Notes under the pieces: generated by a model
Database searches by the model: none
Told to the model about the DNA's origin: nothing
What the model saw: only the letters and a program-made list of their open reading frames with translations
Shown here: piece by piece, positions 16,090 through 29,817 of the stretch
How positions within the stretch are numbered: position 1 is the stretch's first letter
Layout: each line of letters starts with the position of its first letter
Source of the DNA: a phage
Assembly (NCBI GenBank): GCA_019326865.1
Contig: GCA_019326865.1_4101.1
Direction: 5' to 3' (one strand)
DNA length: 64,000 bases
Position numbers and translations under genes: made by a program

Positions 16090-16138
16090 AATTTCTCTCC
16101 TTCATTCATTATACTGTATTTAACCCAATTAAGAAAAG

Positions 16139-16155: not shown

Positions 16156-16162
16156 TATTTTA

Positions 16163-17512
16163 TTATTGTAATGGAATTTCAGTGAGTGTTTTATATGTAC
16201 TTCCGTTATACACCCCTCTCCAATATACTTTACCATCAGTACTAACCACTAATAATCCATATGTTGTAAACCCAAGAGTACCACCAACATACATAGCATC
16301 TTTGATTCTAATACCAATGTCTTCATATGTAAATGACGCGACTGCACCCGCTTGCCATGAAGGACTAGCGTAGTAATCACTATAAACACCATGTGCTTTA
16401 TATATTGATGTTGTTCCTGGTTCAAAAATTACAGTTCCACAGTAGTTCATTCGTATTTTAGTACTGGATGAAGTTGGTACATTTATACCTACGTCATCTT
16501 TTATCCCTGTGGTTAGGACGTTAAAACCACCCGCCACACGGTTGACGTCATTCGCACCGATTAAATACATACCAACGTTGTAGCCCATATAAAACACACT
16601 AGAGCTTCCATTCCAGAAAGAAAAACCACCACCATTCCCACAGCGATATAGTTGTGAATTTGAGCAGTACATCATACCTTCGTTTGTCGCATCAAATTCA
16701 TCTGCTTTTCCTATTGTAGCTACTGTAGTCCAAGTTTTAATTACTTGGTTTGTACTAGCTGGTGTTTGTATACCATATCGTATATTATACCCTTTACCGA
16801 CTATTGTACCATCTTCTAATTTGGCATAAAGTACAGGTCTATTACCAACAAAATACATATTATTGTGTGACATGTCTATTGTGCATCTTAATGAAACTAC
16901 TTTTTGTTTCAATTGATTATCTTTAGTAAAAGAAGTAAAGTAGTAATCTGATGTTGAGTTGTTTATTAAACCTTGTATTGACAACCCCATATACCAGATT
17001 TCTCCATTACTGTTCAATGCTGCCAAAATACAACTATATTTTGAAGTATATGCTGGGGTTACTGATGTTGCTGGTCCTTTATCATATCCACCACAGAATA
17101 CCATCTCCACAACTTCACCCACGTTAGCAAAATAAGAAGATACATTGATAAAACCATTTGTTATAAAAGGTGCTGTATTTATACTTGAATGTGTGAATAT
17201 CCCATTTGCATATACACCACAAAAATGATATGAACCATCATTATCTTGGACTATTATTCCATTTGATAGTAACCAAAAATTGTTTACATTTTTTCTTACT
17301 AATTCGATTCCTGCCCCATTAGTTGGCGTTATACCAAAAGAAACATATTTTGTTTGACCAATTCCATATAAATTTCCATTTGATGCTAATATTGCACCAA
17401 ACCAATTACCACCACCATTCTTGTTATGACCCATACCTATAGAATCAAATTTCTTAACAGTAGGAGCTTGTACTTTGTTCCCATAATTCACCATTCTTCC
17501 AAAAGGTAACAT
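16163..17512 (-). CDS. RCC1-repeat-like protein, paralog 2; N-terminus MLPFGRMVNYGN
   Basis: Conserved N-terminus and upstream motif; G/S/T/N-rich repeats. Confidence 0.65.
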   Translation of the reverse strand: MLPFGRMVNYGNKVQAPTVKKFDSIGMGHNKNGGGNWFGAILASNGNLYGIGQTKYVSFGITPTNGAGIELVRKNVNNFWLLSNGIIVQDNDGSYHFCGVYANGIFTHSSINTAPFITNGFINVSSYFANVGEVVEMVFCGGYDKGPATSVTPAYTSKYSCILAALNSNGEIWYMGLSIQGLINNSTSDYYFTSFTKDNQLKQKVVSLRCTIDMSHNNMYFVGNRPVLYAKLEDGTIVGKGYNIRYGIQTPASTNQVIKTWTTVATIGKADEFDATNEGMMYCSNSQLYRCGNGGGFSFWNGSSSVFYMGYNVGMYLIGANDVNRVAGGFNVLTTGIKDDVGINVPTSSSTKIRMNYCGTVIFEPGTTSIYKAHGVYSDYYASPSWQAGAVASFTYEDIGIRIKDAMYVGGTLGFTTYGLLVVSTDGKVYWRGVYNGSTYKTLTEIPLQ

Positions 17513-17560
17513 ATTTCCCTCCTTTATTCATTATACTATATTTAATACTAAAAGAAAAAG

Positions 17561-17577
17561 CCAGTATCAAGTACTGG
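17561..17577 (-). terminator. hairpin ccagtatcaagtactgg
   Basis: Same hairpin, after stop of 17585..18694. Confidence 0.55.
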
Positions 17578-17584
17578 CATTATG

Positions 17585-18694
17585 TCATTTTGGTAAATTA
17601 ATTTTAGTAAAGGCTGCAACATCCTCGATTGCACCAGGAATTGCGTAATACGATCCAGTACTATATACATCTCCGTCTTTGGTTAATATTGATGTTAAAC
17701 CATCACTAAAAAGAACATCCCTAATCTCACTAACTTCAACGGGTAATTGTAAATTAGTAGCACTATATATTGCACCAGTTTGAGAATTGTTTAATCCCAA
17801 ACCACGGTTCGCCCCAACACCCTTCTGATATGTACTAGTAATTACCATTTGTGTAGCAGTATTTAAGGCAGGTGAATTCGTCATAAACAACGGTGAACTA
17901 TTAGGCAAAGTACTTGCAGGAACTGCACGAAATGTAGTTGTATCTGAACTAAGAAAGTTTGGCGTTTGACCACATACGAAATATGATGTACCATTATAGT
18001 AATTAAATGCATTACCACCAATGACTGCATCGATTACACCAGAGCTACGTAATCCCCACGTGTTAATTTGTGTTCGGTTCCCCGTGCCATGCTGACCCCT
18101 GTCATTCCACCCAGAACTATATAACTTATTATCTAATGTAATATACATACTGTCATTTGCATTCGTCATTACTTTACGCACATTAGTAGCACATTGAGTT
18201 AATGTGTAAATTGATGATGAACCAATACCTAAAGCACCACGATATCCATTAGCTCCTGCACCATAGAGTACTGAACTAGTGCTAAGTACAAATATTAAAC
18301 CATACGAACATACAATATTAGCAATTTCACTCACTGGTATAGCACTGGTAAACCAATTAGTTCTTTCAACTAATACTGTGCTGTAAGAAGTAGTTGTAGA
18401 CGATGTGAACCAATATGTTTCCCCTGATGTCCATATAGTATTATCATTTTTAATAATAACAAGTGCACGATCACCTACGAAAAAATTAGAAACATCTGCA
18501 CTTACTAATATCCATGAAGATACCGTGTTTTTATTACCATTTCCAGATTCACCACCTTGATTTCTACCTATGTAATATAAATCATGTGAATCAGTTAATA
18601 AGAATTGACCCTGTGTAGATGCACCAACTTTAATTATATTTTTAGGACCAGGTACAATATTCCCATAATCAAACATTCTTACAAAAGGTAACAT
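17585..18694 (-). CDS. RCC1-repeat-like protein, paralog 3; N-terminus MLPFVRMFDYGN
   Basis: Start placed at conserved MLPF methionine with SD ggag (track start is 15 nt upstream); motifs LYYIGRNQGGESGNG, LYSSGWNDRGQHGTGN. Confidence 0.65.
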   Translation of the reverse strand: MLPFVRMFDYGNIVPGPKNIIKVGASTQGQFLLTDSHDLYYIGRNQGGESGNGNKNTVSSWILVSADVSNFFVGDRALVIIKNDNTIWTSGETYWFTSSTTTSYSTVLVERTNWFTSAIPVSEIANIVCSYGLIFVLSTSSVLYGAGANGYRGALGIGSSSIYTLTQCATNVRKVMTNANDSMYITLDNKLYSSGWNDRGQHGTGNRTQINTWGLRSSGVIDAVIGGNAFNYYNGTSYFVCGQTPNFLSSDTTTFRAVPASTLPNSSPLFMTNSPALNTATQMVITSTYQKGVGANRGLGLNNSQTGAIYSATNLQLPVEVSEIRDVLFSDGLTSILTKDGDVYSTGSYYAIPGAIEDVAAFTKINLPK

Positions 18695-18768
18695 AACTAA
18701 AATCTCCATATAATAATTATAATGTATTTACAAAAAAATACCAGTACGTATTTCAGTACTGGTATCAT

Positions 18769-19950
18769 TTATGGTAAAATGATAGATTGTAACGAACTCA
18801 TACCCAATGCTGGAACACTAGCCTGTGGTGCTGGAGAATTCAATTTTGGTGATGAAACCGCATATGACATTCCTGAACCCAAATCTGGATCAAAAACTAC
18901 AGCACAATAATTCCCACTATATATAAGTCCATTCTTGTATCCTTGTGCACTTTGAATGCATTTCGTGAACGTACCAATATCTGTCGTGGCATTTATTAAG
19001 TTCCTCCCACGATAACCGCAGGTGTATATGAAATTATCATCGCCTATGTACATACTAGAATCCCCAGAAGAACTACATAGATACGACATATAAGCACGCA
19101 TGTTTTTAGGAGCAACTGACAATGTACCTGCATAGAATTTATTATTCGAACCCGTAATATCACCATCACCCAATGCACCAAAACTTCCCCAGCCAGTACC
19201 GTAATATCTCTTATCACTCAAAAATATAATACAGTTGTTATTACACATCTTGATTTGATATATCAATGAAGGATCAACCCCAGGGAATGATTCAGTGAAT
19301 GTTAGAACAGCCGGATCAGTACTAGCATTACATTGATGATATGTATTAGTACCAGCGGACAAGATTGTTCCATTAGCTAACAGAATTCTCGCAGTACCAG
19401 TACCAGCAGTACAAGCAACTGCACTTCCTGCACTTCCGGTGTATATTTGTCTGAAAGTAAAGAAACCAACAGTTTTACTTCCCTGCCCACTCCAACCAGT
19501 ATTATCAACTCCACACGCCCATACTGAACCATCTTGCATGATCATCATTACACCAAAGCGTTCTATTGAAATATAAACAATCTTCGTTGTATCAACTGCA
19601 CTAAATCTAGAAGTTATATCAGTCCATACCTTAACACTTACCGCCGTCGCACTGGAAGTAGGATCTTCACCAGCTATCATTATCCTCCCATTGTTAGTAA
19701 GATACATTGTCTGACTATAACCAGTACTACAAAACTTAACACTATCAGTCTCTGGAACTTTTAACCACTCGTTGTAACGTGTTACGTTAGTGTTATTACC
19801 TAACTGATAATAGTTATTCATCCCAGATACATATAACACACCATCCTTTATTAAACTATAAGTCGCACTATAGTCACTACAGGTATAACGTGTACCCACA
19901 GGTCGCTCAACGACGTTCCCGTACTTAACCATTCTCCCAAAAGGTAACAT
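18769..19950 (-). CDS. RCC1-repeat-like protein, paralog 4; N-terminus MLPFGRMVKYGN
   Basis: Motifs LYVSGMNNYYQLGNN, VWACGVDNTGWSGQG. Confidence 0.7.
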   Translation of the reverse strand: MLPFGRMVKYGNVVERPVGTRYTCSDYSATYSLIKDGVLYVSGMNNYYQLGNNTNVTRYNEWLKVPETDSVKFCSTGYSQTMYLTNNGRIMIAGEDPTSSATAVSVKVWTDITSRFSAVDTTKIVYISIERFGVMMIMQDGSVWACGVDNTGWSGQGSKTVGFFTFRQIYTGSAGSAVACTAGTGTARILLANGTILSAGTNTYHQCNASTDPAVLTFTESFPGVDPSLIYQIKMCNNNCIIFLSDKRYYGTGWGSFGALGDGDITGSNNKFYAGTLSVAPKNMRAYMSYLCSSSGDSSMYIGDDNFIYTCGYRGRNLINATTDIGTFTKCIQSAQGYKNGLIYSGNYCAVVFDPDLGSGMSYAVSSPKLNSPAPQASVPALGMSSLQSIILP

Positions 19951-19996
19951 ATTTTCCTCCTTTATTCATTATACTATATTTAATACAAAAAGAAAT

Positions 19997-20015
19997 GCCA
20001 GTATCAAGTACTGGC
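19997..20015 (-). terminator. hairpin gccagtatcaagtactggc
   Basis: Same hairpin, after stop of 20024..21172. Confidence 0.55.
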
Positions 20016-20023
20016 ATATTAAT

Positions 20024-21172
20024 TCATTGTATAAATGACATATCTACTTCTGTATAATTAAGAACGTTCTGTCCAGAAATACCACCCATTACTACTATTG
20101 CAAGGCCACAATAATATAATTTTCCAGTATCCGTAAGTATAAGTGATCCAGATGGACTGCGTACCAAATCACACGAACTATTAAAAGAAGTATAAGAAGG
20201 AGTATAGGAGTACTGATTATTATTATTACCAACACCTAATTGCCCAAACCCATTCGATCCAGAAGCATATAGAACTTCATCTGCTTTGACAATATGTGAT
20301 GCCATGTTACCAACACAAGTATATAGAGTATAAACTCCTGAACTCAATAATGTCGGAGTTTTATATTGTATATCTGTAGATGTAGAAGTACCACCTGTAC
20401 CAAATTCGTTCCCATATTGTGCACCGAACTGTTTACCACAAGCGTACAAATTATTATCCGATTTGATAAAAAATGTACTCTGATAACTTACATTAAAATC
20501 TATAACATCCGAAGAAATCATCGTCACCCCAGTAATAGAAGTTTGATTACCCGTGCCCAACTGGTAGTAATAGTTAAAACCACAACCCCATAAAGTATTA
20601 TCTTCTCGCAAATAAATGTTACCAACTGCCTTTTTAACCGAAGTTATAGTATCTACTCTTTTGAATGTGTTAAAAGAATTAATGTTTGTACCATCACCAA
20701 ATGATGATATGTTCGATATATTGTTAACTCCACAACAATACAATGTACCATCTTTTGTTATCAAATTCACCTTCATATCATAAAAACTACTCATGTATTT
20801 TATATCAGAAACATTAACACCACTTGATGTTATCCACGTAGTACAGTCCGTCCACAAAGTTTTTCTATCAGTTACACCAGTGAATGCCTTCGTGTTACCA
20901 GTGATAAAAACTTTTCCAGTACCTTTCTCTTCATACAATTGACAATCACTACTGTTATCTTCCAATAGAACTCGTTTAACATTCTCCGCACAAAGAATAA
21001 ATTTACTCGATGCTACACCTGTACCAGTACCCCAATTCGTCGCAGAAGATGCATACAACTTATCAGTATAAGTATCATGAAGATACATAGAATCACTGGA
21101 ATATATTTTAAAACGCCCTTCTTTCTCAGGTATAATATTCCCGTACTTAACCATTCTCCCAAAAGGTAACAT
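20024..21172 (-). CDS. RCC1-repeat-like protein, paralog 5; N-terminus MLPFGRMVKYGN
   Basis: Clearest RCC1-like motifs: LYASGSNGFGQLGVGN, LWGCGFNYYYQLGTGN. Confidence 0.75.
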   Translation of the reverse strand: MLPFGRMVKYGNIIPEKEGRFKIYSSDSMYLHDTYTDKLYASSATNWGTGTGVASSKFILCAENVKRVLLEDNSSDCQLYEEKGTGKVFITGNTKAFTGVTDRKTLWTDCTTWITSSGVNVSDIKYMSSFYDMKVNLITKDGTLYCCGVNNISNISSFGDGTNINSFNTFKRVDTITSVKKAVGNIYLREDNTLWGCGFNYYYQLGTGNQTSITGVTMISSDVIDFNVSYQSTFFIKSDNNLYACGKQFGAQYGNEFGTGGTSTSTDIQYKTPTLLSSGVYTLYTCVGNMASHIVKADEVLYASGSNGFGQLGVGNNNNQYSYTPSYTSFNSSCDLVRSPSGSLILTDTGKLYYCGLAIVVMGGISGQNVLNYTEVDMSFIQ

Positions 21173-21268
21173 ATCCCCTCCTTATTCATTATATCATATT
21201 TACCCAAAAAACACTTGACACCCTTTCAGTACTGTTGTACGATAGAAGGAATATTAGGAGAACTACAC

Positions 21269-21496
21269 ATGACAAATACCCTTAAGTACTACCTCAATAC
21301 TCTGCCCGACCTAGAGTACGGGAAGTTTCTCGCAGATAGTTCGTGGCTGATTGAGCTAAAAACACATAACAGCCCTGGATGCACCCTTATGATGAACAAT
21401 GCAATTGATACCCTTATAGTGAGTATTTTACATAGCAATATCTACGAGGATAACAATAAACAATTAACAAAAATCTTAGTACTGCTATCTCTATGA
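21269..21496 (+). CDS. small protein, family C (MHKEFY...LIYRY-type)
   Basis: Start at ATG with SD aggag; tandem paralog. Confidence 0.5.
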   Translation: MTNTLKYYLNTLPDLEYGKFLADSSWLIELKTHNSPGCTLMMNNAIDTLIVSILHSNIYEDNNKQLTKILVLLSL

Positions 21497-21705
21497 ACAC
21501 TATGAGCACTGAACAGTTCTACATCAATGCACTACCAACTAAAAGTCTTCAAGAAAGCTTACTGTATACACAAAAGAATTTTAAAAACTTCAAACGTTGC
21601 CCTAAACTACTGAACTCGTACAGGAATAATATTATAAGAAATGTTTTACAAGGAGAAGAAAGTATGCAATACTATCACATCCTTATCCTTATATTGGAGT
21701 ACTAA
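21493..21705 (+). CDS. small protein, family C
   Basis: Tandem paralog, ATGA overlap. Confidence 0.5.
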   Translation: MNTMSTEQFYINALPTKSLQESLLYTQKNFKNFKRCPKLLNSYRNNIIRNVLQGEESMQYYHILILILEY

Positions 21706-21706
21706 T

Positions 21707-21916
21707 ATGAATACTGAACATAAAGAATTCTACACCAAATACCTCAGTAACGAAGAACAATTGTTTCTAAGAAGTGTATCACCTGTAAGTACCAATACTC
21801 AATTCGGTAGAGATTGCTTTAATAATTGTATACGTAGTACCCTAGAAGCTATCGAATACAATAACAAAAATATTATGTACTCAGGTTTAATAGGACTAAT
21901 ATTCTTCTATGAATAA
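21707..21916 (+). CDS. small protein, family C (MNTEHKEFY..)
   Basis: Start at family-typical N-terminus. Confidence 0.55.
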   Translation: MNTEHKEFYTKYLSNEEQLFLRSVSPVSTNTQFGRDCFNNCIRSTLEAIEYNNKNIMYSGLIGLIFFYE

Positions 21917-22103
21917 TCATAAAGATTTCTATGGTAGTAAACTACACAAACATGAACAGCTATCATTCTCTTTAGCACCACCTATGAGAAAGGATAATCT
22001 ATATTATAATTACGATTTCAGGATGGCGACACGTTATGCAATAGAACATCAGTTCCCTGAAACTAAGTACCGCTCTATCCTGAACCTCATCTTTAAGTTC
22101 TAA
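21909..22103 (+). CDS. small protein, family C (MNNHKDFY..LIFKF)
   Basis: Tandem paralog. Confidence 0.55.
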   Translation: MNNHKDFYGSKLHKHEQLSFSLAPPMRKDNLYYNYDFRMATRYAIEHQFPETKYRSILNLIFKF

Positions 22104-22150
22104 AAACCGCACCAGGGTCCGAGTACTTTAACATAGTAAGGCTAATTACA

Positions 22151-22336
22151 ATGAATCACATAAGCTACTACTACCAACAACTATCCGACAGAGACAAGTA
22201 CAGCCACAATTCCCATGTATGGTACTACAAACGCGGCAGTATAAGAGACAAACAACATTACTTCTGTATTTCTATTAAAGAAGCACTAACAACTAAGTAC
22301 ACGTACAGAGCAGTACTTAAACTAATCTCTATCTAA
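22151..22336 (+). CDS. small protein, family C
   Basis: Tandem paralog. Confidence 0.5.
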   Translation: MNHISYYYQQLSDRDKYSHNSHVWYYKRGSIRDKQHYFCISIKEALTTKYTYRAVLKLISI

Positions 22337-22344
22337 GGAATACT

Positions 22345-22524
22345 ATGCAAGAATTCTATATAGAACATATAACCATAAAAGACCGTTTCATGTACGACAC
22401 CTTCGTGAAATACTACAAACTGGGAACAAAAAGTACTAAAAATATTAATCTCAATAGCTGCATACACCAAGCACTAACAAAAGATAATCCCTTCAGGGAA
22501 ATCCTCGCTCTCGCATCTGTATAA
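22345..22524 (+). CDS. small protein, family C (MQEFYIEH..), 59 aa
   Basis: Below track cutoff; found by translating gap. Confidence 0.45.
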   Translation: MQEFYIEHITIKDRFMYDTFVKYYKLGTKSTKNINLNSCIHQALTKDNPFREILALASV

Positions 22525-22534
22525 AGGAAACCAA

Positions 22535-23194
22535 ATGAAACTTAATCAACACAGCAAACAATACCTTAAACACTTTAAGTACCTCAACAGTATTCAAGCA
22601 GAATCTTTTACACCAGCATATACGTATCACCCAAATGTACTAAAGAAACGAAATAAAAAGAAAAAATCCAGAAATGTTCTCGTATCTAAGAACCTCAAAT
22701 CGTACTTGAAGAAAAATAATATAGCTCTTGCTTTTATTAATATCTATAATACTGATTTAAAAGTATTGAGTACTAATACCAGCACAAAAGCACTAAAGAA
22801 TGCATCTATCTATATACACATGGATAATATCCCGTGCACTATAATTCTATCTTCCGGGAATGTATACTTCTTCGGGAATTGTAATAGCACCCATGATATC
22901 AGTACTGCACAATTCCAAATCGGAGATATGTACTGCATGGGTTCAGAAAAAATACACGATAACATGCACTTCTTCCAAAAGCAACGTACTAACGAAACTG
23001 ATACAGTACTGCAATTCCTCAAAGAATTACAAAACAAAGAATTATCCGAGGAAGAAGAATTCATGTACAGTACTGTAATCGATAATCCAGGACTCTATAA
23101 AAACGCGTACAAACTAACAAAACATGTACAGGAACTTATCAGTACTGATAAGAAATTCCATCACCTCATTACGTATATTTCAAACTATGTATAA
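22535..23194 (+). CDS. hypothetical protein (219 aa) within family C array
   Basis: Longer ORF. Confidence 0.55.
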   Translation: MKLNQHSKQYLKHFKYLNSIQAESFTPAYTYHPNVLKKRNKKKKSRNVLVSKNLKSYLKKNNIALAFINIYNTDLKVLSTNTSTKALKNASIYIHMDNIPCTIILSSGNVYFFGNCNSTHDISTAQFQIGDMYCMGSEKIHDNMHFFQKQRTNETDTVLQFLKELQNKELSEEEEFMYSTVIDNPGLYKNAYKLTKHVQELISTDKKFHHLITYISNYV

Positions 23195-23369
23195 AGAATT
23201 CTACAAAGATAAAATCCCAATGCATCTACAACACCATATACCAAACGTTGCATTGGGCATAAAAGATCACGCAAAGATAATGTTCCAACAATGTACTAAG
23301 TACACGCTCATATACGATGATAATCCATATATGCTGTACTACGTAGTAATGCTAACATTCAGGTACTAA
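23187..23369 (+). CDS. small protein, family C (MYKEFYKD..LTFRY)
   Basis: Tandem paralog. Confidence 0.55.
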   Translation: MYKEFYKDKIPMHLQHHIPNVALGIKDHAKIMFQQCTKYTLIYDDNPYMLYYVVMLTFRY

Positions 23370-23370
23370 T

Positions 23371-23550
23371 ATGCACAAATATAAAGAATTCTACCTCTCG
23401 TACCTTAATTCCGATATAGTAACATCCAATACCTTCAGTACTAAAATTATCTATAATGAAGTAATGAAAGAATGTATTAAAGGTGCTATTAACCCTAAAG
23501 ATACGTATGACTTGTACTATGCAGTACTAACCCTTGTTTTCACGAAATAA
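23371..23550 (+). CDS. small protein, family C (MHKYKEFY..), 59 aa
   Basis: Found by translating gap. Confidence 0.45.
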   Translation: MHKYKEFYLSYLNSDIVTSNTFSTKIIYNEVMKECIKGAINPKDTYDLYYAVLTLVFTK

Positions 23551-23558
23551 CACATAAT

Positions 23559-23747
23559 ATGAATAACCACAAAGAATACTACATACAATTTCTCCCCAGT
23601 ATTTTTGAACACTACGCCAGATATAAAGTCCCCCTGGATAACGATTTGGCAGTACTGGGATTCAATCACTGCATAGAACGAAGTATAGAAAATAGTAATA
23701 GCTATGAACAATTATATAACACTATCCTACTTATATTCAGGTACTAA
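23559..23747 (+). CDS. small protein, family C (MNNHKEYY..LIFRY)
   Basis: Tandem paralog. Confidence 0.55.
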   Translation: MNNHKEYYIQFLPSIFEHYARYKVPLDNDLAVLGFNHCIERSIENSNSYEQLYNTILLIFRY

Positions 23748-23748
23748 T

Positions 23749-23937
23749 ATGCACAAAGAATACTACGCAAAATATTTCCCAATGTATCTCAGAACTAATC
23801 TATTAGATAAACCTCGCGATATCAATGCACAAAACGATAAAGTGTACTTTATTATGTGCACTAAAGCATGTATACTAGATCATGACAGCTACCATCGAGT
23901 ACTGTATCATACACTGTACCTAGCTTTCGTATTCTAA
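23749..23937 (+). CDS. small protein, family C (MHKEYY..LAFVF)
   Basis: Tandem paralog. Confidence 0.55.
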   Translation: MHKEYYAKYFPMYLRTNLLDKPRDINAQNDKVYFIMCTKACILDHDSYHRVLYHTLYLAFVF

Positions 23938-23946
23938 GAGAACAAT

Positions 23947-24132
23947 ATGCATAAAGAATTCTACTTAAGCCATCTGGATCTAAACTCCCAAATGCTTATA
24001 CCACTAATCCCAATAGATATCAAGGATAAGAAAAATACCGAACAATTCATTTACCATACACAGTGTGCGATCACCCCAAATTACATTCCATATGAATTGT
24101 ACTACATTCTCGCCCTAATATATAGGTACTAA
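23947..24132 (+). CDS. small protein, family C (MHKEFY..LIYRY)
   Basis: Tandem paralog. Confidence 0.55.
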   Translation: MHKEFYLSHLDLNSQMLIPLIPIDIKDKKNTEQFIYHTQCAITPNYIPYELYYILALIYRY

Positions 24133-24133
24133 T

Positions 24134-24319
24134 ATGCATAGAGAATACTACACACAATTTGTTAAAGGGAACTACAAACATGCCGTACCCAGAACCCCTT
24201 TAAATTCTCATGACCCAAGTACTATATTCCTGTTTAATGACGCAATACGTACAGTACTCAATACTAAAGATGAACAAGTGCAGTACGTATTCTTACTTTT
24301 ACTTATATACAGACACTAA
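24134..24319 (+). CDS. small protein, family C (MHREYY..LIYRH)
   Basis: Tandem paralog. Confidence 0.55.
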   Translation: MHREYYTQFVKGNYKHAVPRTPLNSHDPSTIFLFNDAIRTVLNTKDEQVQYVFLLLLIYRH

Positions 24320-24342
24320 CTAATATACAGACACTAACTAAT
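24307..24342. repeat. perfect 18-bp tandem duplication (atacagacactaactaat x2) spanning stop codon
   Basis: Two identical adjacent 18-mers read directly. Confidence 0.8.
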
Positions 24343-24525
24343 ATGAATAAAGAACATAAAGACTTCTACATAAGAAAACTAACATTCGTCCCCGTAAGAA
24401 TATACAAAGAATGCGACCCAAGATTATACCTATGGCACTTCAATGAGTGCATAAAAGATTCTATATACCCTAAGAACTATAAAGAACAATTGTGCTCAGT
24501 ACTAACACTAGTACTATCATATTAA
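24343..24525 (+). CDS. small protein, family C (MNKEHKDFY..)
   Basis: Tandem paralog. Confidence 0.55.
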   Translation: MNKEHKDFYIRKLTFVPVRIYKECDPRLYLWHFNECIKDSIYPKNYKEQLCSVLTLVLSY

Positions 24526-24538
24526 TAGAGATAATACT

Positions 24539-24730
24539 ATGTATAAAGAGTACTATATAAGTAAACTCAAAGAGAATGAACAAGCATGGATTAAATCTAT
24601 AATAGCACTTGCATTTAATAGATATGCATTTAACAGATGCACAGAGATTGCTATAGAACCTTGTCCTATTAAAGAGAAGGCACAGTACAATCAGTACTAC
24701 TATATGTTAATGCTTATATATAGAAAGTAA
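24539..24730 (+). CDS. small protein, family C (MYKEYY..LIYRK)
   Basis: Tandem paralog. Confidence 0.55.
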   Translation: MYKEYYISKLKENEQAWIKSIIALAFNRYAFNRCTEIAIEPCPIKEKAQYNQYYYMLMLIYRK

Positions 24731-25386
24731 TTCAACATAGAGACAGGGGAAGCTCCGCAGGGTAAGCATTGGACAGGCTTTAACATATGTTATATATGTT
24801 AAAATTCAGCCTGGACAAATGCGATCACTAGGATTCTCCCCAGGCTAAACCCCGTAATCATATATAAACATTTAAGTAATCATTTATAATCATTGTGGTG
24901 ATCAGTAGTGATTAGTATTGAGTACTAGAGTGTAATAGAGTACAGGAATGTGCACGTTTAATCAAGAACGTAGCAGTACTGATATGCCACTAAGTAGGCA
25001 GAGGAAGTCTGCCGTACTTTGTAGTTTCCAAGCTCCTTTTCCATTTTGCAAATTACATCAAATGTAATCAAAAGTAATCACGTAATGATTAGTACTGAAA
25101 TATTAGTTTCATCTTTTTTCAAATACCTTTTTACCCTTCGGGATAAATGTATTTTTATCCATTTACCTTTGGGGTAAAATCCCATTACCCCTTGAGGCTC
25201 CAGCAAAAAGTTGGAAAGTACTCCATCGTAAATATGGATCGTAAAAATTTTGGAGTACCTATGAAATAAAAGTTGGATCTTCGAAAGTTGAAATTTACGT
25301 TGGGACATTGATGTTTTTTGGGATATAATGAGTTTTGTAGTGATGAAGTTTGTACGATTACAGTACTGAATAATGAAAGAAAGCTA

Positions 25387-25414
25387 TTGACATTATGATT
25401 CAGTACTGTATAAT
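25387..25414 (+). promoter_or_regulatory. orphan sigma70-like promoter (TTGACA -16- TATAAT) with no ORF downstream
   Basis: Consensus hexamers; only a ~20-codon ORF follows. Confidence 0.45.
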
Positions 25415-25785
25415 GTTCTACATAGAGAGATGAGTTGCCGCAAACAATTCATTCACTCTACCTCCTGTCGTGAGACAGTACAGAAAAGATAGTTCCTCCT
25501 ATGCGTGGTACATCTTTTTATAACCTCTTTTTTCGTAATATAAACAGTACTGGTATTAACAGAATGGTATCAGTACTGACTTTAATCTAATACATTATGC
25601 CACCAGCACAAGCTGGTGGATTCCCTCTAACAGTATTCAGTACTACATGATAGTCTTCATCCTCCTAGGGTAACATAGTGAGGGCTATTGTGGGAGTACT
25701 GAATACTCCTTTCAAAAGATAGAATAATGGTATAGTACCGACGGATTTTGGGCGTAGTTACCCTGGGTGGATTTTGGACGTAGAT

Positions 25786-25930
25786 ATGTCTAGCCCTCCA
25801 GAAGTCTGGAAGTAAAGATGGCTATCCATCTAGACGGCTAAACGGATAGATTTCTAGATGGCTGTATGGCTAGACGTTTGGATGGCTAAACGGCTAGATG
25901 GTTACACGTCTGGAAGTATAGACGGCTAAA
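25786..25930. repeat. cluster of short direct repeats (ggctaaacgg / ctagatgg / tctggaagta units), iteron-like
   Basis: Repeated 8-12 nt units in noncoding DNA. Confidence 0.5.
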
Positions 25931-26619
25931 TCAAAATTTTTATTTTGTTTTTCCAATAGTTCCCCTACCGCGTGAGGATATTTTTCCCCGCAGTATCTGG
26001 AGTTAGATTTTTCTGAATCTGGAATCATTATCTAATAAACTGGGGGCAATGTCAACCGCCTGGATGAATATTTTTAAAAATAATCTAGTACTGAATTTTG
26101 GGCGTAACTATGCACCCGGTGGGCTTGAGTCTTTCTCGACTTGATGAAACTATTATACAGTACTAGAAAAATAAAGCAATACCCTAAACGCAAAAAATTT
26201 AATTAATTTGCTTGCTATCCTGGGCCGTACTATGGTACTATTAGTTCAGTACTGAGAAAGTGCTTTAACCTGCTAGGGTGCGGGAGTGTATCCTTTTTAA
26301 ATTATATGAATTTTGGACGCAATCCCGCACCCTGTGGGTTAGTGCCTTGTGTCCGGCTTATGTAGTAATTATACGCTTTTTCAGTACTGAGTCAATAGCT
26401 AAAAACAAAAATAATTGAAAATAATTTAACGCGTTTAAACGGCCCGTAAAGCCCTGGAGTGATTGGAATGGTACAAATGTATAGCTTAGGTGTATTAATG
26501 CGTTAGAATGCGTCTGAGGCCGTTTTACGGGGTGTAGTGGTGATTTGGTTGATTCAGTACTGAATGATAGTATTCCTATATAGAAAGAAAACTATTTTAA
26601 AAGTACATGTAGAAAGTAC

Positions 26620-26647
26620 TTGCAAAGTATTGGGAAAGGTGTAGAAT
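26620..26647 (+). promoter_or_regulatory. early-type promoter TTGCAA -16- TAGAAT, followed by leader hairpin gcgggaacacttcccgc
   Basis: Hexamers and spacing read from sequence. Confidence 0.55.
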
Positions 26648-26702
26648 GTTTTACATCGAGAGCGGGAACACTTCCCGCTGCACATAAAGAGAGATTAAAA
26701 CG

Positions 26703-27065
26703 ATGGCTACTCAAATCAATAAAATTATTGCTAACCTGGTTAACTTCCGCGACGAGATGAAAGGTCTTCCGGCTGAAACGGTAAAAATTCACATTTCAGC
26801 TTATCGGGAACTTATTGCAATGTTACCGCTTAAGCGTGAACAATACGCCGCTACCGTGATGCTTGATGCGATGATCCATGAGATGATCGCCAGTGATTTA
26901 ACGATGGTTTATCAGTACATGGGCGAAAATTTCGCGGTGTCTGGTAAGCCAGTACCAGGGATGGCAACTACTGAGGAATTGCACGGTTTAAATTTAAAAC
27001 AAGATGCATGGGATAATATGCCTCGTTTCCTGGTATGGGCTGACAGTGGCAAAATTTACAAATAA
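26703..27065 (+). CDS. hypothetical protein (120 aa)
   Basis: ORF after promoter + leader hairpin; starts ATGGCT. Confidence 0.65.
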   Translation: MATQINKIIANLVNFRDEMKGLPAETVKIHISAYRELIAMLPLKREQYAATVMLDAMIHEMIASDLTMVYQYMGENFAVSGKPVPGMATTEELHGLNLKQDAWDNMPRFLVWADSGKIYK

Positions 27066-27079
27066 GTTTAATAAAGTAC

Positions 27080-27107
27080 TTGCATACTAAGTTAAAACAA
27101 GTATAAT
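27080..27107 (+). promoter_or_regulatory. early-type promoter TTGCAT -16- TATAAT
   Basis: Followed by two leader stem-loops (27127-27146, 27151-27165). Confidence 0.6.
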
Positions 27108-27150
27108 ACTTTCTATCAGGTGCAACGGGAAGTTTTTAAACTTCCCTATA

Positions 27151-27165
27151 GGGGAATAGTTCCCC
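27151..27165 (+). other. 5' leader palindrome ggggaatagttcccc
   Basis: Perfect 6-bp stems; same motif class upstream of >25 genes in 26.6-44.5 kb. Confidence 0.6.
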
Positions 27166-27186
27166 ACTATATAAGAGGATTAAAAA

Positions 27187-27426
27187 ATGGCTAAATCAAA
27201 AATGTTCTTAGGTCACAAAAACAAAACTCATTGGAATGTAAGCCTTTGGATTAATAACGATGAGTCATTGTACCGGTTGGCCCAGGACTTTATTGCCGCC
27301 AACACTAATCGCAATGATGCGGCCCGTCATATGATGTTATTTTTAGAACAGACTGGACAAGATAAAACACCGGACGGATTCAAATATAGCACTACTGCGA
27401 TCCGTGCGGCGATGGTTGGAATGTAA
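27187..27426 (+). CDS. hypothetical protein (79 aa), paralog of 29223 gene
   Basis: Shares HKNKTHWNVSLWINNDESLYR and GFKYSTTAIRAAMVGM with 29223..29462. Confidence 0.7.
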   Translation: MAKSKMFLGHKNKTHWNVSLWINNDESLYRLAQDFIAANTNRNDAARHMMLFLEQTGQDKTPDGFKYSTTAIRAAMVGM

Positions 27427-27511
27427 TAGAATTTATTTAAAGTACTATCGCAAAAAATGATAGTACTTTATAATAGTGTTTTATTCATACACCAACGATA
27501 AGGGCAACAGC

Positions 27512-27778
27512 ATGAATATTAAGTATTTTGCGACGCGTGAACAAGCTCGGAAGGCGGCGAAAGTGGAAGGTGCAACGTTTAAAGATATGGGCATACAATC
27601 GGAACGTGGTAAACGTTGGGCCATTGTAAAGCGTAGTACAGCCAGATCATTACAGTACTGGTTATCAGCTTTAAAAAGTCCTGATAGTGTATCGCGTCGA
27701 GTGGTAGAAATAAAGCTCGACCGTAAGGGGAATCGTGTTACCGTGTACCGTACTAAAAAGATTGCAGTACTTGAATAA
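27512..27778 (+). CDS. hypothetical protein, paralog of 39936 gene
   Basis: Shares KYFATREQAR..FKDMG..RKGNRVTVY; start at MNIKYF. Confidence 0.65.
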   Translation: MNIKYFATREQARKAAKVEGATFKDMGIQSERGKRWAIVKRSTARSLQYWLSALKSPDSVSRRVVEIKLDRKGNRVTVYRTKKIAVLE

Positions 27779-27784
27779 AAGTAC

Positions 27785-27812
27785 TTGCAAAGTAAGTTAA
27801 AAGGCGTATAAT
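27785..27812 (+). promoter_or_regulatory. early-type promoter TTGCAA -16- TATAAT + leader hairpin ggggaatacttcccc
   Basis: Read from sequence. Confidence 0.6.
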
Positions 27813-27862
27813 ACTTTCTATCAGGTGGGGAATACTTCCCCACTACATAAGAGGATTTAAAA

Positions 27863-28093
27863 ATGGCTACCATGTACATGACCGAAGTTAAAACCGTAAA
27901 AGATACTACCACAAATAAAACTACTTACTTACAGCGGATCTGTGGTGTATGGCAACGTATTAGTAAAGTAAAGTACTTTAAATTAACATCATATGCCAAT
28001 CGTTCGGATTCATTCAGTACTGAAATAAAAGGTAATAAAGTACACCAATACGGCACTTATTATTATTATAGCCTGGACGCGATTGCAGTATAA
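27863..28093 (+). CDS. hypothetical protein
   Basis: ORF after promoter cassette. Confidence 0.6.
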   Translation: MATMYMTEVKTVKDTTTNKTTYLQRICGVWQRISKVKYFKLTSYANRSDSFSTEIKGNKVHQYGTYYYYSLDAIAV

Positions 28094-28519
28094 GCAGTTT
28101 ACAAATCTTTACAATTGCCGGTATTGACTTAAAATGTCAGTACTGGCATAATGTATCTATTGAAACGAACAATTTGGCCCACGGGGTGCGGGAGTGTATC
28201 TATAGAAAAAGTAGTTTAGTACAGTTACAATTGTGCACCCGGTGGGTTAGCTGTTGTCATGGGGTATATTATGCCAGTACTTGATAATGCTGTCAATACC
28301 TTTTTACTATTCAGTACTGAAAACTATTTGATAAAAAGTACTTGCAAACTATGTTTAAAGGCGTATAATGTTTTACATCAGGACGGGGAACGAAATAAGT
28401 AACTTCCCGTTAAGTAGCCCAGGAGTAAGGCATACGAAAAACTCCCCTGATAAAATAGTTTGACAATTGTTTTTAAAAGCGTATAATACTTACATCAACT
28501 ACTTAATGAGGGTTACAAA

Positions 28520-29131
28520 ATGAAAACTATCACTACTACTACTTATGTTATGGATTTTTCTGAATTAAACGCAGAACAAAAAACGTCAGCTATCGAACTG
28601 GTTCGGGAACGTGAAAAAAACTTAAACGACGATTATTTTTCTGAAAGTGAAATTGAATACTATAAAGAAACAGTACTACCGGAATATGGCATTAATGAAG
28701 CTGAAATACAATTCAGTGGTTTTTGGTCGCAGGGTGACGGTGCATCAATTAGTACTGACCACGTTGACGCAGTGAAGTTTTTACGTAAGGTAAGAGCATT
28801 AACTAAGTATCGCTCAATCCGTCACCTGCTGAATGAAGATGATTTGGCGATGAGTGTAAAGCGTTCTCACTCCCGCTACTCACATGAGAACACTGTAAGC
28901 GGGTACATTGAATCGGCTTACACTGATTTAACCGCAAAACAAGAAACGTTAGTTAATGGGCTTGAGGAACTGCTCACTGATACTATTCGTGAATTGTCAC
29001 GCAAGTTATACCGTGATTTAGAGAATGCATATGAGGATCAATTCACTACTGAAAACATCGTATCACTGATTGAGGGTAACGAATATCAATTCAATGTTAT
29101 TGATGGCGTAGTAGAATCAATTGCATATTAA
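28520..29131 (+). CDS. hypothetical protein (203 aa)
   Basis: ORF after promoter TTGACA..TATAAT. Confidence 0.65.
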   Translation: MKTITTTTYVMDFSELNAEQKTSAIELVREREKNLNDDYFSESEIEYYKETVLPEYGINEAEIQFSGFWSQGDGASISTDHVDAVKFLRKVRALTKYRSIRHLLNEDDLAMSVKRSHSRYSHENTVSGYIESAYTDLTAKQETLVNGLEELLTDTIRELSRKLYRDLENAYEDQFTTENIVSLIEGNEYQFNVIDGVVESIAY

Positions 29132-29138
29132 AAAGTAC

Positions 29139-29166
29139 TTGCAAACTAAGTTTAAAAGCGTATAAT
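29139..29166 (+). promoter_or_regulatory. early-type promoter TTGCAA -16- TATAAT + leader hairpin gggggaatggttcccc
   Basis: Read from sequence. Confidence 0.6.
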
Positions 29167-29222
29167 ACTTTATATCGAGGCGGGGGAATGGTTCCCCTGC
29201 TCAAACAAACGAGGATTTAAAA

Positions 29223-29462: not shown

Positions 29463-29518
29463 CATTCAGTACTGAATCAATGGCGGGTGTGGTTCCCGCC
29501 TTTACTGAGGATTATCTA

Positions 29519-29800: not shown

Positions 29801-29817
29801 GTACTAAGGATTATATA

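What the first reader, a model, noticed from the sequence alone, without database searches (positions are those of the whole stretch)
21269..24730. Third tandem family: about 15 copies of a ~60-aa M-H/N-K-E-F/Y-Y ... L-I-Y-R-Y protein
These share an N-terminus M(H/N)KE(F/Y)Y and an aromatic/aliphatic C-terminus (LIYRY, LIFRY, LAFVF, LIFKF). Two members are 59 aa and were missed by the 60-aa track cutoff. A perfect 18-bp tandem duplication at 24307-24342 spans one member's stop codon, a trace of recent slippage or recombination.
Basis: seen in the sequence. Interest (0 to 1): 0.55.

Follow-up and report, generated by a model that had tools for sequence, protein, structure and literature searches.

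The report
Tandem small-protein gene family, jumbo coliphage
This stretch of a giant E. coli phage (121Q/PBECO4 group) holds a real, tightly packed row of 13 related genes for 60-aa four-helix proteins of unknown function. Related phages gain, lose and swap these genes, which is an ordinary kind of feature for large phages, though this family has not been described.

Summary
The window is an Asteriusvirus (121Q/PBECO4/UE-S1-like jumbo coliphage). The interval 21269-24730 equals 121Q gp249-265, all annotated "hypothetical".

- **Membership.** Of 15 plus-strand ORFs, 10 are clear members of the HKEFY…LIFRY family (PHROG 11711). Two more (22151, 22345) and one (21493) are distant relatives by profile-profile comparison. 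The first ORF (21269) is unsupported. The 219-aa gene (22535-23194) is unrelated but conserved inside the array.
- **Coding status.** The genes are real: pooled dN/dS is 0.28, third-position changes are in excess, and the AlphaFold model has pLDDT 93 (four helices) with no structural neighbour.
- **Distribution.** The family is confined to this genus: 34 representatives at E ≤ 1e-3 among 1.84 billion proteins, one of them (P0069) judged spurious.
- **Array dynamics.** Eleven genomes carry 12-19 members drawn from about 25 orthologous cassettes in a conserved order. The window's array is a UE-S1-like/121Q-like mosaic with a deletion scar.
- **The 18-bp duplication.** It is perfect, unique to this genome, and sits at a junction that also varies in other phages.
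- **Context.** The array follows one conserved sigma-70-like promoter, has almost no intergenic space, and ends 263 bp before the site homologous to a relative's mapped physical terminus.

Most likely it is an early, host-transcribed operon of accessory host-interaction proteins. That function is inferred, not shown.

The parts
21215..21243 (+). Sigma-70-like promoter (TTGACA-17-TACGAT), 26 nt upstream of the first ORF, followed by the Shine-Dalgarno sequence AGGAGA
   Evidence: Found by the promoter scan. The -35 hexamer, the spacing and a TAC(T/G/A)AT -10 hexamer are conserved in 10 related phages. Function is inferred.
21269..21496 (+). First ORF of the operon (75 aa; 121Q gp249 orthologue). 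Shares only the KYYLNTLP-like N-terminal motif, so family membership is not supported
   Evidence: Leave-one-out E = 3.5. hhalign probability 0.6%. Orthologues are 52-97% identical in 10 phages.
21493..21705 (+). Distant member, 'm02 type' (70 aa; …MQYYHILILILEY)
   Evidence: hhalign against the core family: probability 84%, E = 7e-6. A second copy of this type is present in G17, A4, fEgEco12 and BF17.
21707..21916 (+). Core member, cassette A (69 aa)
   Evidence: Leave-one-out E = 9.7e-11. dN/dS 0.25.
21909..22103 (+). Core member, cassette B (64 aa)
   Evidence: Leave-one-out E = 2.8e-6. Few substitutions; dN/dS 0.94 from 35 differences.
22104..22150 (+). 47-nt spacer that is a deletion scar. 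It keeps about 40 nt of the 3' end of an m02-type cassette that is intact in phage G17
   Evidence: Pairwise alignment with G17.
22151..22336 (+). Subtype-B member, cassette C (61 aa; …YTYRAVLKLISI)
   Evidence: hhalign of subtype B against the core: probability 79%, E = 1.6e-5. dN/dS 0.12.
22345..22524 (+). Subtype-B member, cassette D (59 aa)
   Evidence: Leave-one-out E = 1e-3. hhalign support. dN/dS 0.26.
22535..23194 (+). Unrelated 219-aa gene embedded in the array at a conserved position (121Q gp256; PHROG 29152, unknown function)
   Evidence: No HMM or hhalign relation to the family. PHROG match. Present at this position in all 12 genomes compared, including JNE01. The AlphaFold model failed (pLDDT 39).
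23187..23369 (+). Core member, cassette E (60 aa); overlaps the 219-aa gene by 8 nt
   Evidence: Leave-one-out E = 8e-11. dN/dS 0.25.
23371..23550 (+). Core member, cassette F (59 aa)
   Evidence: Leave-one-out E = 1.3e-9. dN/dS 0.33.
23559..23747 (+). Core member, cassette G (62 aa); this is the protein that was modelled
   Evidence: Leave-one-out E = 6e-14. AlphaFold pLDDT 93.1 with four helices at residues 3-9, 14-20, 29-44 and 48-60.
23749..23937 (+). Core member, cassette H (62 aa)
   Evidence: Leave-one-out E = 7e-6. dN/dS 0.26.
23947..24132 (+). Core member, cassette I (61 aa). The mosaic breakpoint lies just upstream: genes to the left are UE-S1-like, and I to K are 121Q-like
   Evidence: Leave-one-out E = 5.8e-10. 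Nucleotide identity 100% to 121Q and G17 but 81% to UE-S1.
24134..24319 (+). Core member, cassette J (61 aa)
   Evidence: Leave-one-out E = 6e-9. dN/dS 0.28.
24307..24342 (+). Perfect 18-bp tandem duplication (ATACAGACACTAACTAAT x2) covering the last codons and stop of J plus the J/K spacer
   Evidence: Seen in the sequence and by Tandem Repeats Finder. Absent from the 10 other genomes, where the spacer is 5 nt (13 nt in UE-S1 and 17 nt in A4, with CACTAA repeats).
24343..24525 (+). Core member, cassette K (60 aa)
   Evidence: Leave-one-out E = 5e-9. dN/dS 0.21. Absent from UE-S1, A4 and fEgEco12.
24539..24730 (+). Core member, cassette L (63 aa); last gene of the array
   Evidence: Leave-one-out E = 3e-11. 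dN/dS 0.36.
24993..25013 (+). Context only: the position homologous to the physical left terminus and the start of the about 21-kb direct terminal repeat of phage fEgEco12, with a hairpin at 24997-25013
   Evidence: fEgEco12 record position 1 aligns to window 24993. The fEgEco12 termini were determined with PhageTerm and restriction digests (PMC13070987). The hairpin was found.

Best explanation
The interval is a single operon in an Asteriusvirus jumbo coliphage. It encodes a genus-restricted multigene family of soluble, roughly 60-aa four-helix proteins: 13 members in three sequence subtypes, plus one unrelated 219-aa gene and one unassigned first gene.

**Shown**
- The genes are real and under purifying selection.
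- They share a conserved aromatic and aliphatic core: K5, E6, F/Y7, Y8, L12, P25, L26, F35, C38, I/L43, Y/L52, Y53, L56, L58, I59, F/Y60. Helix 2, the loops and the start of helix 3 are hypervariable.
- The array is a conserved ordered series of about 25 old, distinct cassettes. Each phage carries 12-19 of them.
- Cassettes are lost, duplicated and exchanged between phages. Breakpoints fall at the cassette boundaries, where DNA is conserved: the first about 25 nt of coding sequence (ATGAATAAAGAACATAAAGAATTCTA…) and the …AGGTACTAAT-ATG junction.
- The 18-bp duplication, the 47-nt scar and the UE-S1/121Q mosaic are traces of that turnover in this genome.

**Inferred**
- The operon is transcribed by host sigma-70 RNA polymerase from the one conserved promoter at 21215-21243. 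That makes it early or constitutive.
- It is translated by coupled ribosomes on an unusually G-poor, weakly structured mRNA.
- Each paralogue uses the common helical scaffold to bind a different partner, most likely host proteins or host defence components. The array would then be an accessory host-takeover or counter-defence module whose content is tuned by cassette turnover.
For: **Identity and annotation.** The interval is 87-98% identical in nucleotide sequence to 121Q, UE-S1 and about 40 other Asteriusvirus records, and is annotated there as hypothetical proteins.

**Family reality.**
- Leave-one-out HMMs against the six-frame background separate members from non-members.
- PHROG 11711 matches 10 of 14 members, best E = 4e-26.
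- hhalign links the three subtypes.
- JNE01 carries intermediate sequences that are hit by two subtype HMMs.

**Coding status.**
- Pooled dN/dS is 0.28, and 11 of 12 genes are at or below 0.40. Codon-position differences are 252/283/619.
- The AlphaFold model has pLDDT 93.1 and pTM 0.78.

**Narrow distribution.** There are 54 hits among 5.8 billion clusters. There are 34 representatives at E ≤ 1e-3 among 1.84 billion, one of them (P0069) spurious. The most divergent ones map to the Asteriusvirus phages JNE01 and Turkey5.

**Array dynamics.**
- Orthogroup maps of 11 genomes show the conserved order with presence and absence of cassettes.
- The gene after J always starts ATGAATAAAGAACATAAAGA, whichever cassette it is.
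- N-terminal prefixes swap within orthogroups.
- Third codon positions of the motif and all TAA stops are conserved across 17 orthogroups.
- The window's array is a mosaic and contains a deletion scar.

**Operon organisation.**
- Gaps between genes run from -8 to +23 nt, plus the 47-nt scar.
- There is no internal terminator, and internal promoter-like hits are at the level of shuffled sequence.
- The upstream promoter is conserved.

**Early-type context.**
- The adjacent terminal repeat carries 13 perfect TTGACA-16/17-TATAAT sites.
- RpoD-like promoters were assigned to early genes in the related phage CBB (PMC5259590).

**Not structural.** The phAPEC6 virion proteome lists the neighbouring RCC1-like gp549 and gp551. 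It lists none of gp540-548, although a 4.7-kDa protein was detected.

**mRNA structure.** Mean minimum free energy per 120 nt is -14.4 kcal/mol. Other plus-strand gene blocks of similar G+C give -19.2 to -22.1.
Against: - There are no expression, proteomic or phenotypic data for any member.
- The promoter is a consensus match with an imperfect -10 hexamer. The window version, TACGAT, is the weakest among the phages.
- A dN/dS of 0.28 is only moderate constraint. Whole cassettes are dispensable in nature.
- The array lies just outside the terminal repeat, not inside it. It therefore does not sit in the block richest in strong early-type promoters.
Confidence: 0.45

Rival explanations
1. The members are small DNA-binding proteins or transcription regulators that act on the phage's own genome, for example at the nearby terminus, packaging site or origin region, or on the early promoters of the terminal repeat. 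They would not act on host proteins.
For: - They are small all-helical proteins with a median pI of 8.5.
- The array ends 263 bp from the site homologous to the mapped physical terminus. It lies next to an ORF-poor, repeat-bearing region at the cumulative GC-skew minimum.
- A lineage-specific expansion of a small domain in phage G was proposed to be transcription factors or DNA-binding proteins (PMC7824862).
Against: - pI ranges from 4.4 to 9.7, and 16% of members are below 6.
- No basic patch is conserved. The conserved positions are hydrophobic core positions.
- There is no Pfam match.
Confidence: 0.2
2. The array is largely dispensable ballast. It would be duplicated genes that spread because a head-full or terminal-repeat packaging phage with a very large capsid tolerates extra DNA, and that are now slowly decaying, with no specific function per cassette.
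For: - Hua et al. proposed tandem duplication as a route of genome expansion in jumbo phages, including 121Q (PMC5646251).
- Cassettes are present or absent among closely related phages.
- There is a deletion scar.
- Constraint is only moderate, and cassette B has dN/dS 0.94.
Against: - Paralogues are old (13-41% identity), yet each orthogroup is kept intact and in the same order. This holds even in the divergent JNE01 lineage.
- Pooled dN/dS is 0.28.
- No frameshifted or stop-interrupted copies were found among the verified genomes. Only the UNVERIFIED CMSTMSU record has them.
- The fold core is conserved.
Confidence: 0.15
3. The proteins are virion-packaged or DNA-associated internal proteins, made together with the neighbouring RCC1-like proteins.
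For: The divergently transcribed neighbours, the RCC1-like paralogues, are virion components in phAPEC6 (gp549 and gp551).
Against: - None of phAPEC6 gp540-548 is among the 62 virion proteins, although a 4.7-kDa protein was detected.
- The promoter is of the host sigma-70 type, which the CBB authors assign to the suspected early genes of that relative.
- Variable gene content is atypical for structural modules.
Confidence: 0.08
4. The ORFs are not genes. The similarity would reflect a DNA repeat or AT-rich codon bias.
For: - DNA is unusually conserved at cassette boundaries, including synonymous positions.
- Composition is odd: the coding strand has 13% G.
Against: - Third-position substitutions are in excess and dN/dS is 0.28.
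- No six-frame segment elsewhere in the 64 kb scores above 8.9 bits.
- The fold is confidently predicted.
- Reading frames are intact in more than 10 genomes.
- Paralogues are 13-41% identical at the protein level, and their interiors are too diverged to be a DNA repeat.
Confidence: 0.02

Closest known systems
PHROG 11711 / Escherichia phage 121Q gp251-265 and their orthologues in PBECO4, phAPEC6, UE-S1, fEgEco12 and others (all 'hypothetical protein')
   Same: This is the same family and the same locus. Ten of the window's ORFs match the PHROG profile. The interval is collinear with 121Q gp249-265.
   Different: Nothing differs in kind. This genome has its own cassette set (A B C D | E F G H I J K L), lacks cassette M and the N-R types, and carries a unique 18-bp duplication. 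The database entries give no function, and the array was not described in the papers I could search.
Hyperplastic regions of T4-type phages, and their promoter-early/stem-loop cassette shuffling (from my own knowledge: Comeau 2007, Arbiol 2010; not re-read here)
   Same: Both are blocks of small, fast-turning-over accessory ORFs between conserved modules. In both, short conserved boundary sequences serve as recombination substrates, so that whole ORFs are gained, lost and swapped between related phages.
   Different: Here the ORFs are paralogues of one family rather than unrelated novel ORFs. The conserved boundaries are the coding 5' ends and stop/start junctions, not a promoter plus a stem-loop. 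There is one upstream promoter and no internal terminators.
Terminal-repeat-encoded early or host-takeover modules (T5 pre-early genes, the SPO1 terminal-redundancy host-takeover module, the long-terminal-repeat genes of Staphylococcus phage K; from my own knowledge)
   Same: Both involve many small genes of unknown function, host-type promoters, one orientation, and a position at the genome end of a large virulent phage with long direct terminal repeats.
   Different: The array ends 263 bp outside the terminal repeat, so it is present once per genome. It is a single paralogous family. There is no sequence similarity to those modules.
Multigene families near the genome ends of large eukaryotic DNA viruses (African swine fever virus MGF110/360/505, poxvirus terminal families; from my own knowledge)
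   Same: Both are tandem paralogue arrays beside the genome terminus whose copy number and content differ between isolates, with old, diverged paralogues kept as distinct orthogroups.
   Different: The virus realm and the fold are different, and there is no homology. A role in countering host defences is demonstrated for some of those families and is only conjectured here.
The lineage-specific expansion of about 35 zinc-ribbon proteins in Bacillus phage G (PMC7824862)
   Same: Both are large expansions of a very small domain, specific to one jumbo-phage lineage, with unknown function.
   Different: This family has no zinc-ribbon motif (one semi-conserved Cys) and an all-helical fold.

Membership tests
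PHROG 11711 (unknown function) | Significant match to the family profile | tested here: met
   Ten of 14 ORFs match, best E = 4.4e-26. ORFs 21269, 21493, 22151 and 22345 do not match.
Single homologous superfamily covering all small ORFs of the interval | Profile-profile similarity over the full length between subtypes | tested here: inconclusive
   The core against subtype B gives probability 79%, E = 1.6e-5. The core against the m02 type gives 84%, E = 7e-6. Both are full-length alignments. The core against the first ORF (21269) gives probability 0.6%. Cross-hits in JNE01 support the first two links.
Any Pfam or NCBI-curated domain family | Match at or above the gathering score | tested here: not met
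   Pfam gives only two sub-threshold hits, E about 0.08. NCBIfam was not run.
Helix-turn-helix or other known small DNA-binding folds | Structural superposition of the model on a known DNA-binding domain | tested here: not met
Known anti-phage defence components (PADLOC) | Profile match | tested here: not met
   None of the 14 members matches.
Terminal-repeat-encoded early module (T5, SPO1 or phage K type) | The genes lie inside the direct terminal repeat | tested here: not met
   The start of the terminal repeat maps to window 24993, and the array stops at 24730.
Terminal-repeat-encoded early module (T5, SPO1 or phage K type) | Early transcription by host RNA polymerase | not testable with these tools
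   Only a conserved sigma-70-like consensus site was found. No transcript data were found.
T4-type promoter-early/stem-loop cassettes | Each ORF is flanked by its own early promoter and a stem-loop | tested here: not met
   Gaps are -8 to +23 nt. There are no internal terminator-like sites, and promoter-like hits are at shuffle level (26 found against 26.5 expected).
Virus multigene family near a genome end (ASFV or poxvirus kind; an analogy only) | Tandem paralogues adjacent to the terminus, with content that varies between isolates | tested here: met
   There are 12-19 members per genome in 11 genomes, drawn from about 25 orthogroups. The array ends 263 bp from the terminus.
Virus multigene family near a genome end (ASFV or poxvirus kind; an analogy only) | Role in host range or evasion of host defence | not testable with these tools
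   This needs deletion mutants and host panels.

The most novel reading that the evidence does not exclude
The family is an orphan-fold binding scaffold. The array would work as a cassette library. Each 60-aa four-helix paralogue would neutralise a different host factor or defence system. The DNA-conserved cassette boundaries (the first about 25 coding nucleotides and the AGGTACTAAT-ATG junction) would be maintained because they let co-infecting Asteriusviruses swap, add or drop cassettes in frame. That would be a phage counterpart of the terminal multigene families of large eukaryotic DNA viruses. The G-poor, weakly structured polycistronic mRNA would be an adaptation that lets any cassette order be translated.
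Probability: 0.25. Interest if true: 0.65.

Novelty: new member of a known kind. Interest (0 to 1): 0.38.

Why it matters
Jumbo phages of the 121Q/PBECO4 group are being isolated for therapy, and over 80% of their genes have no assigned function. This array is a compact, well-delimited example of how such genomes carry and reshuffle accessory genes. It comprises 13 paralogues here and up to 19 in the relatives compared, drawn from about 25 cassette types.

The family has a confidently predicted fold with no detectable structural relative, so one solved structure or one identified partner would annotate hundreds of database proteins.

If the cassettes prove to be host-takeover or counter-defence factors, their presence or absence could help explain differences in host range among otherwise near-identical therapeutic phages. 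If they prove dispensable, the array marks about 3.5 kb that could be removed or replaced in engineered phages.

In either case this is an instance of a known phenomenon, not a new principle.

Tried and rejected
**Function by sequence.** All searches were negative.
- Pfam gave only two E of about 0.08 hits.
- PADLOC gave none.
- A PDB sequence profile search gave one designed repeat protein at E = 0.027.
- PHROGs gave only families of unknown function.

**Function by fold.**
- Foldseek against PDB had no hit better than E = 5.7.
- Foldseek against BFVD returned only the family's own orthologue.
- The afdb50 library was not available.

**Clue from the embedded 219-aa gene.**
- Its homologues are restricted to the same phages.
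- The AlphaFold model was unusable (pLDDT 38.8).
- It is not related to the family.

**Wider relatives.** The exhaustive profile search over 1.84 billion representatives found 34 proteins. The one long hit, P0069 (531 aa, 7 stretches), is an unrelated low-complexity repeat protein.

**Other negative searches.**
- Rfam found no non-coding RNA in 20500-27500.
- There is no match to the array in 5,426 complete E. coli genomes.
- I found no paper describing this family and no transcriptome of an Asteriusvirus. [quoted passage not shown]

**Ideas rejected.**
- Transmembrane or secreted peptides. The N-termini are polar, the hydrophobic C-terminal stretch is 10-13 residues and forms helix 4 of the bundle, and hydropathy (GRAVY) is mostly negative.
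- Acidic DNA-mimic proteins. The median pI is 8.5.

**Excluded data.** The CMSTMSU record is labelled UNVERIFIED and full of frameshifts, so it was left out of the counts.

Full report
**1. What the window is**

- The interval and its flanks are 87-98% identical to Escherichia phages 121Q, UE-S1, PBECO4, fEgEco12, SP27 and about 40 other records of the genus Asteriusvirus. These are Rak2-like jumbo myoviruses of about 350 kb.
- The interval 21269-24730 is collinear with 121Q gp249-gp265 and UE-S1 genes 213-224. All of these are annotated "hypothetical protein".
- Upstream, on the minus strand, lie five RCC1-like paralogues (14944-21172).
- Downstream lies about 2 kb without long ORFs.

**2. 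Checking the observation**

- Fifteen plus-strand ORFs fill the interval.
- Ten carry the stated N-terminal M(H/N/Y)KE(F/Y)Y motif and an L-x-L-I-(F/Y)-(R/K)-(Y/F)-type C-terminus.
- Leave-one-out profile HMMs, with E-values scaled to the 962 six-frame segments of the window, recover those ten at E = 6e-14 to 7e-6.
- The other ORFs score as follows: 22345 at 1e-3, 22151 at 0.07, 21493 at 0.46 and 21269 at 3.5.
- No other segment of the 64-kb window, in any frame, exceeds 8.9 bits. AT-rich codon bias therefore cannot explain the similarity.
- With orthologues from ten other phages added, profile-profile comparison gives:
  - 22151/22345 type ("subtype B", …YTYREVLKLISI) to the core: probability 79%, E = 1.6e-5, 54 aligned columns.
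  - 21493 type to the core: probability 84%, E = 7e-6.
  - First ORF (21269) to the core: probability 0.6%, so it is not linked.
- In the divergent phage JNE01, several members are hit by two subtype HMMs at once. This supports one superfamily.
- The 219-aa ORF at 22535-23194 is unrelated.
- The supported count is therefore 13 members, not about 15.
- The two 59-aa members exist.
- The 18-bp duplication is perfect at 24307-24324 / 24325-24342 and spans the TAA of the 24134-24319 gene.

**3. Are they genes?**

- I compared each window gene with its orthologues (at least 70% identity) in ten genomes.
- Pooled Nei-Gojobori estimates are dS = 0.158 and dN = 0.044, so dN/dS is 0.28.
- Eleven of twelve genes lie between 0.12 and 0.40. 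The twelfth has only 35 differences.
- Differences by codon position are 252/283/619. The pairs are not independent, so these figures describe the pattern rather than provide a formal test.
- Reading frames are intact in all verified genomes.
- AlphaFold2, given a 66-sequence family alignment, predicts the 23559-23744 product with mean pLDDT 93.1 and pTM 0.78. The model is a bundle of four helices at residues 3-9, 14-20, 29-44 and 48-60.
- The 219-aa neighbour, by contrast, gave pLDDT 39.
- Conserved columns are almost all aromatic or aliphatic: F/Y7, Y8, L12, L26, F35, C38, I/L43, Y/L52, Y53, L56, L58, I59 and F/Y60. K5, E6 and P25 are also conserved.
- Helix 2, the loops and the first half of helix 3 are hypervariable.
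- The proteins are Tyr-rich (10.4%) and Gly-poor (1.5%). Their pI ranges from 4.4 to 9.7, with a median of 8.5.

**4. Distribution**

- A word-seeded profile search of 5.8 billion clusters found 54 proteins.
- An exhaustive HMMER search of 1.84 billion representatives found 34 at E ≤ 1e-3. One of these is a spurious low-complexity protein.
- The most divergent true hits map to the Asteriusvirus phages JNE01 and Turkey5.
- There is no match in 5,426 complete E. coli genomes.
- As far as sequence methods can see, the family is confined to this phage genus.

**5. Anatomy and dynamics of the array**

- I clustered the members from 11 genomes at 60% identity. This gives about 25 orthogroups arranged on a common backbone: A B C [N P Q R] D | 219-aa gene | [O/W] E F M G H I J [A' Y] K [S] L.
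- Each phage has 12-19 members. The window has A B C D | E F G H I J K L, plus the m02-type gene.
- Paralogues within the window are 13-41% identical (median 26%), whereas orthologues are mostly above 85% identical. The duplications are therefore old, and the cassettes are maintained as distinct entities.
- JNE01 keeps the same architecture, with cassettes scoring 16.5-60.5 bits against the core HMM. That architecture is the first ORF, two m02-type genes, subtype B, the roughly 220-aa gene, then ten core members.
- Turnover happens at the cassette boundaries:
  - After cassette J, the next gene is A', K or L depending on the phage. It always begins ATGAATAAAGAACATAAAGA.
  - N-terminal prefixes (MH-, MY-, MNNH-, MNKEH-) swap within orthogroups.
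  - Across 17 orthogroups the motif codons AAA GAA T(T/A)C TAC are nearly fixed, even at third positions. All stops are TAA. Six groups end …AGG TAC TAA T ATG.
- This genome carries three traces of such events:
  - The array is a mosaic. Genes m01 to H are 96-100% identical to UE-S1. Genes I to K are 98-100% identical to 121Q, G17 and SP27 but only 81-93% identical to UE-S1, or absent from it.
  - The 47-nt spacer at 22104-22150 retains about 40 nt of the 3' end of an m02-type cassette that is intact in G17.
  - The 18-bp duplication is found in none of the ten other genomes. In those the J spacer is 5 nt, or 13 and 17 nt with CACTAA repeats in UE-S1 and A4.

**6. Expression signals (inferred)**

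- One sigma-70-like site, TTGACA-17-TACGAT, lies at 21215-21243, 26 nt before the first ATG and its AGGAGA Shine-Dalgarno sequence. It is conserved in ten phages, most of which have TACTAT as the -10 hexamer.
- Inside the array, promoter-like hits are at the level of shuffled sequence, and there is no terminator-like site.
- Gene spacing runs from -8 to +23 nt, apart from the 47-nt scar. Seven of the 14 junctions are 1 nt or less. In several, the Arg codon AGG of the preceding gene's C-terminal "RY" lies 10 nt before the next ATG.
- The coding strand is G-poor (13.4% G, 20.0% C), the reverse of every other gene block in the window. Synonymous codon usage also differs.
- The predicted mRNA is less structured than other plus-strand gene blocks of similar G+C. 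Mean minimum free energy per 120 nt is -14.4 kcal/mol against -19.2 to -22.1.
- I read this as one polycistronic, translationally coupled operon made by host RNA polymerase. The cause of the odd composition is unexplained.

**7. Genomic position**

- fEgEco12 has 20,993-bp direct terminal repeats. Its ends were confirmed with PhageTerm and restriction digests (PMC13070987).
- Position 1 of that record aligns to window 24993. By homology, the array ends 263 bp before the physical terminus and the start of the terminal repeat, and it lies outside the repeat.
- The repeat region of the window (from 24993 to roughly 46000) carries 13 perfect TTGACA-16/17-TATAAT sites on the plus strand.
- In the related phage CBB, RpoD-like promoters were taken to mark the early region (PMC5259590).

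**8. Function**

- The phAPEC6 virion proteome lists the neighbouring RCC1-like proteins gp549 and gp551. It lists none of gp540-548, which are the array genes in that phage.
- The features to be explained are:
  - a small soluble scaffold with a conserved core and variable surfaces;
  - old paralogues kept under moderate purifying selection;
  - variable cassette content between isolates;
  - a host-type promoter;
  - a position beside the early-promoter-rich genome end.
- The best-supported reading is an accessory operon of host-interaction (takeover or counter-defence) proteins.
- My confidence by step:
  - real gene family in one operon: about 0.95;
  - early transcription by the host polymerase: about 0.6;
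  - binding of host or defence targets: about 0.35-0.4.
- The rivals are phage-directed DNA-binding regulators, dispensable duplicated ballast, and virion proteins. They are listed with their tests.

**9. Comparison and novelty**

- The family is already in databases as PHROG 11711 and as many GenBank "hypothetical proteins".
- In the papers I could search, I found only general remarks about tandem duplication in 121Q and phAPEC6 and nothing on this family.
- It works like other plastic accessory blocks of large phages and like the terminal multigene families of large eukaryotic DNA viruses.
- It fails the specific definitions of a terminal-repeat-encoded module, because it lies outside the repeat. 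It also fails that of T4-type promoter/stem-loop cassettes, because there are no internal promoters or stem-loops.
- It is a new, undescribed member of a known kind of feature, of moderate interest.

Noticed in passing
window 24993-25013 and 24731-26700: Window 24993 aligns to position 1 of phage fEgEco12, which is its experimentally supported physical terminus and the start of its roughly 21-kb direct terminal repeat. A hairpin (GGCAGAGGAAGTCTGCC) sits at 24997-25013. The surrounding 2 kb has no long ORF, holds tandem repeats at 25829-25914 (24-nt unit, 3 copies), and coincides with the minimum of cumulative GC skew. This may be the packaging or replication control region.
   Followed up: partly
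window 25387-43595 (+ strand): There are thirteen perfect sigma-70 consensus promoters (TTGACA-16/17-TATAAT) within the presumed terminal repeat. There are also repeated 60-95-bp intergenic elements near 26602, 27778, 28331, 29128, 34954 and 41692. This looks like a dense early-gene region with reiterated promoter cassettes.
   Followed up: partly
window 14944-21172 (- strand): Five tandem RCC1-like paralogues (374-449 aa) are transcribed divergently from the small-protein array. Their number varies between related phages. Two phAPEC6 orthologues (gp549, gp551) are virion proteins.
   Followed up: partly
window 21269-24730: The coding strand of the array is C-rich and G-poor (13.4% G, GC skew -0.22), the opposite of every other gene block in the window. 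Synonymous codon usage is distinct: TAC 67% against 40%, TTC 76% against 39%, Leu CTN 77% against 43%. The predicted mRNA is weakly structured. The cause is unexplained.
   Followed up: partly
window 11430-14210 (+ strand): Eight back-to-back ORFs of 104-141 aa look like another tandem paralogue family. They were not examined.
   Followed up: no
window 22535-23194: A 219-aa gene (PHROG 29152, unknown function) sits at a fixed position inside the array in every genome compared. It is highly conserved (64-99% identity) and restricted to these phages. The AlphaFold model failed (pLDDT 39).
   Followed up: yes
proteins P0032, P0083, P0092, P0097, P0100 (homologues of window 21707-23194 genes): Several homologues are labelled as Escherichia coli hypothetical proteins. 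Where the longest contig is listed at 350-380 kb, this suggests jumbo-phage genomes deposited within bacterial assemblies. One exception is P0092, on a 126-kb contig. None is in the RefSeq complete-genome set.
   Followed up: partly
L001 (UE-S1) and paper PMC13070987: The 8.3-kb terminal repeat reported for UE-S1 is disputed by the fEgEco12 authors on the basis of a genome alignment. The other mapped Asteriusvirus repeats are about 20-21 kb.
   Followed up: no
L011 (CMSTMSU, MH494197.1): In this record, which is labelled UNVERIFIED, many array genes are broken by frameshifts. These are most likely sequencing errors, so the record was excluded from the counts.
   Followed up: partly
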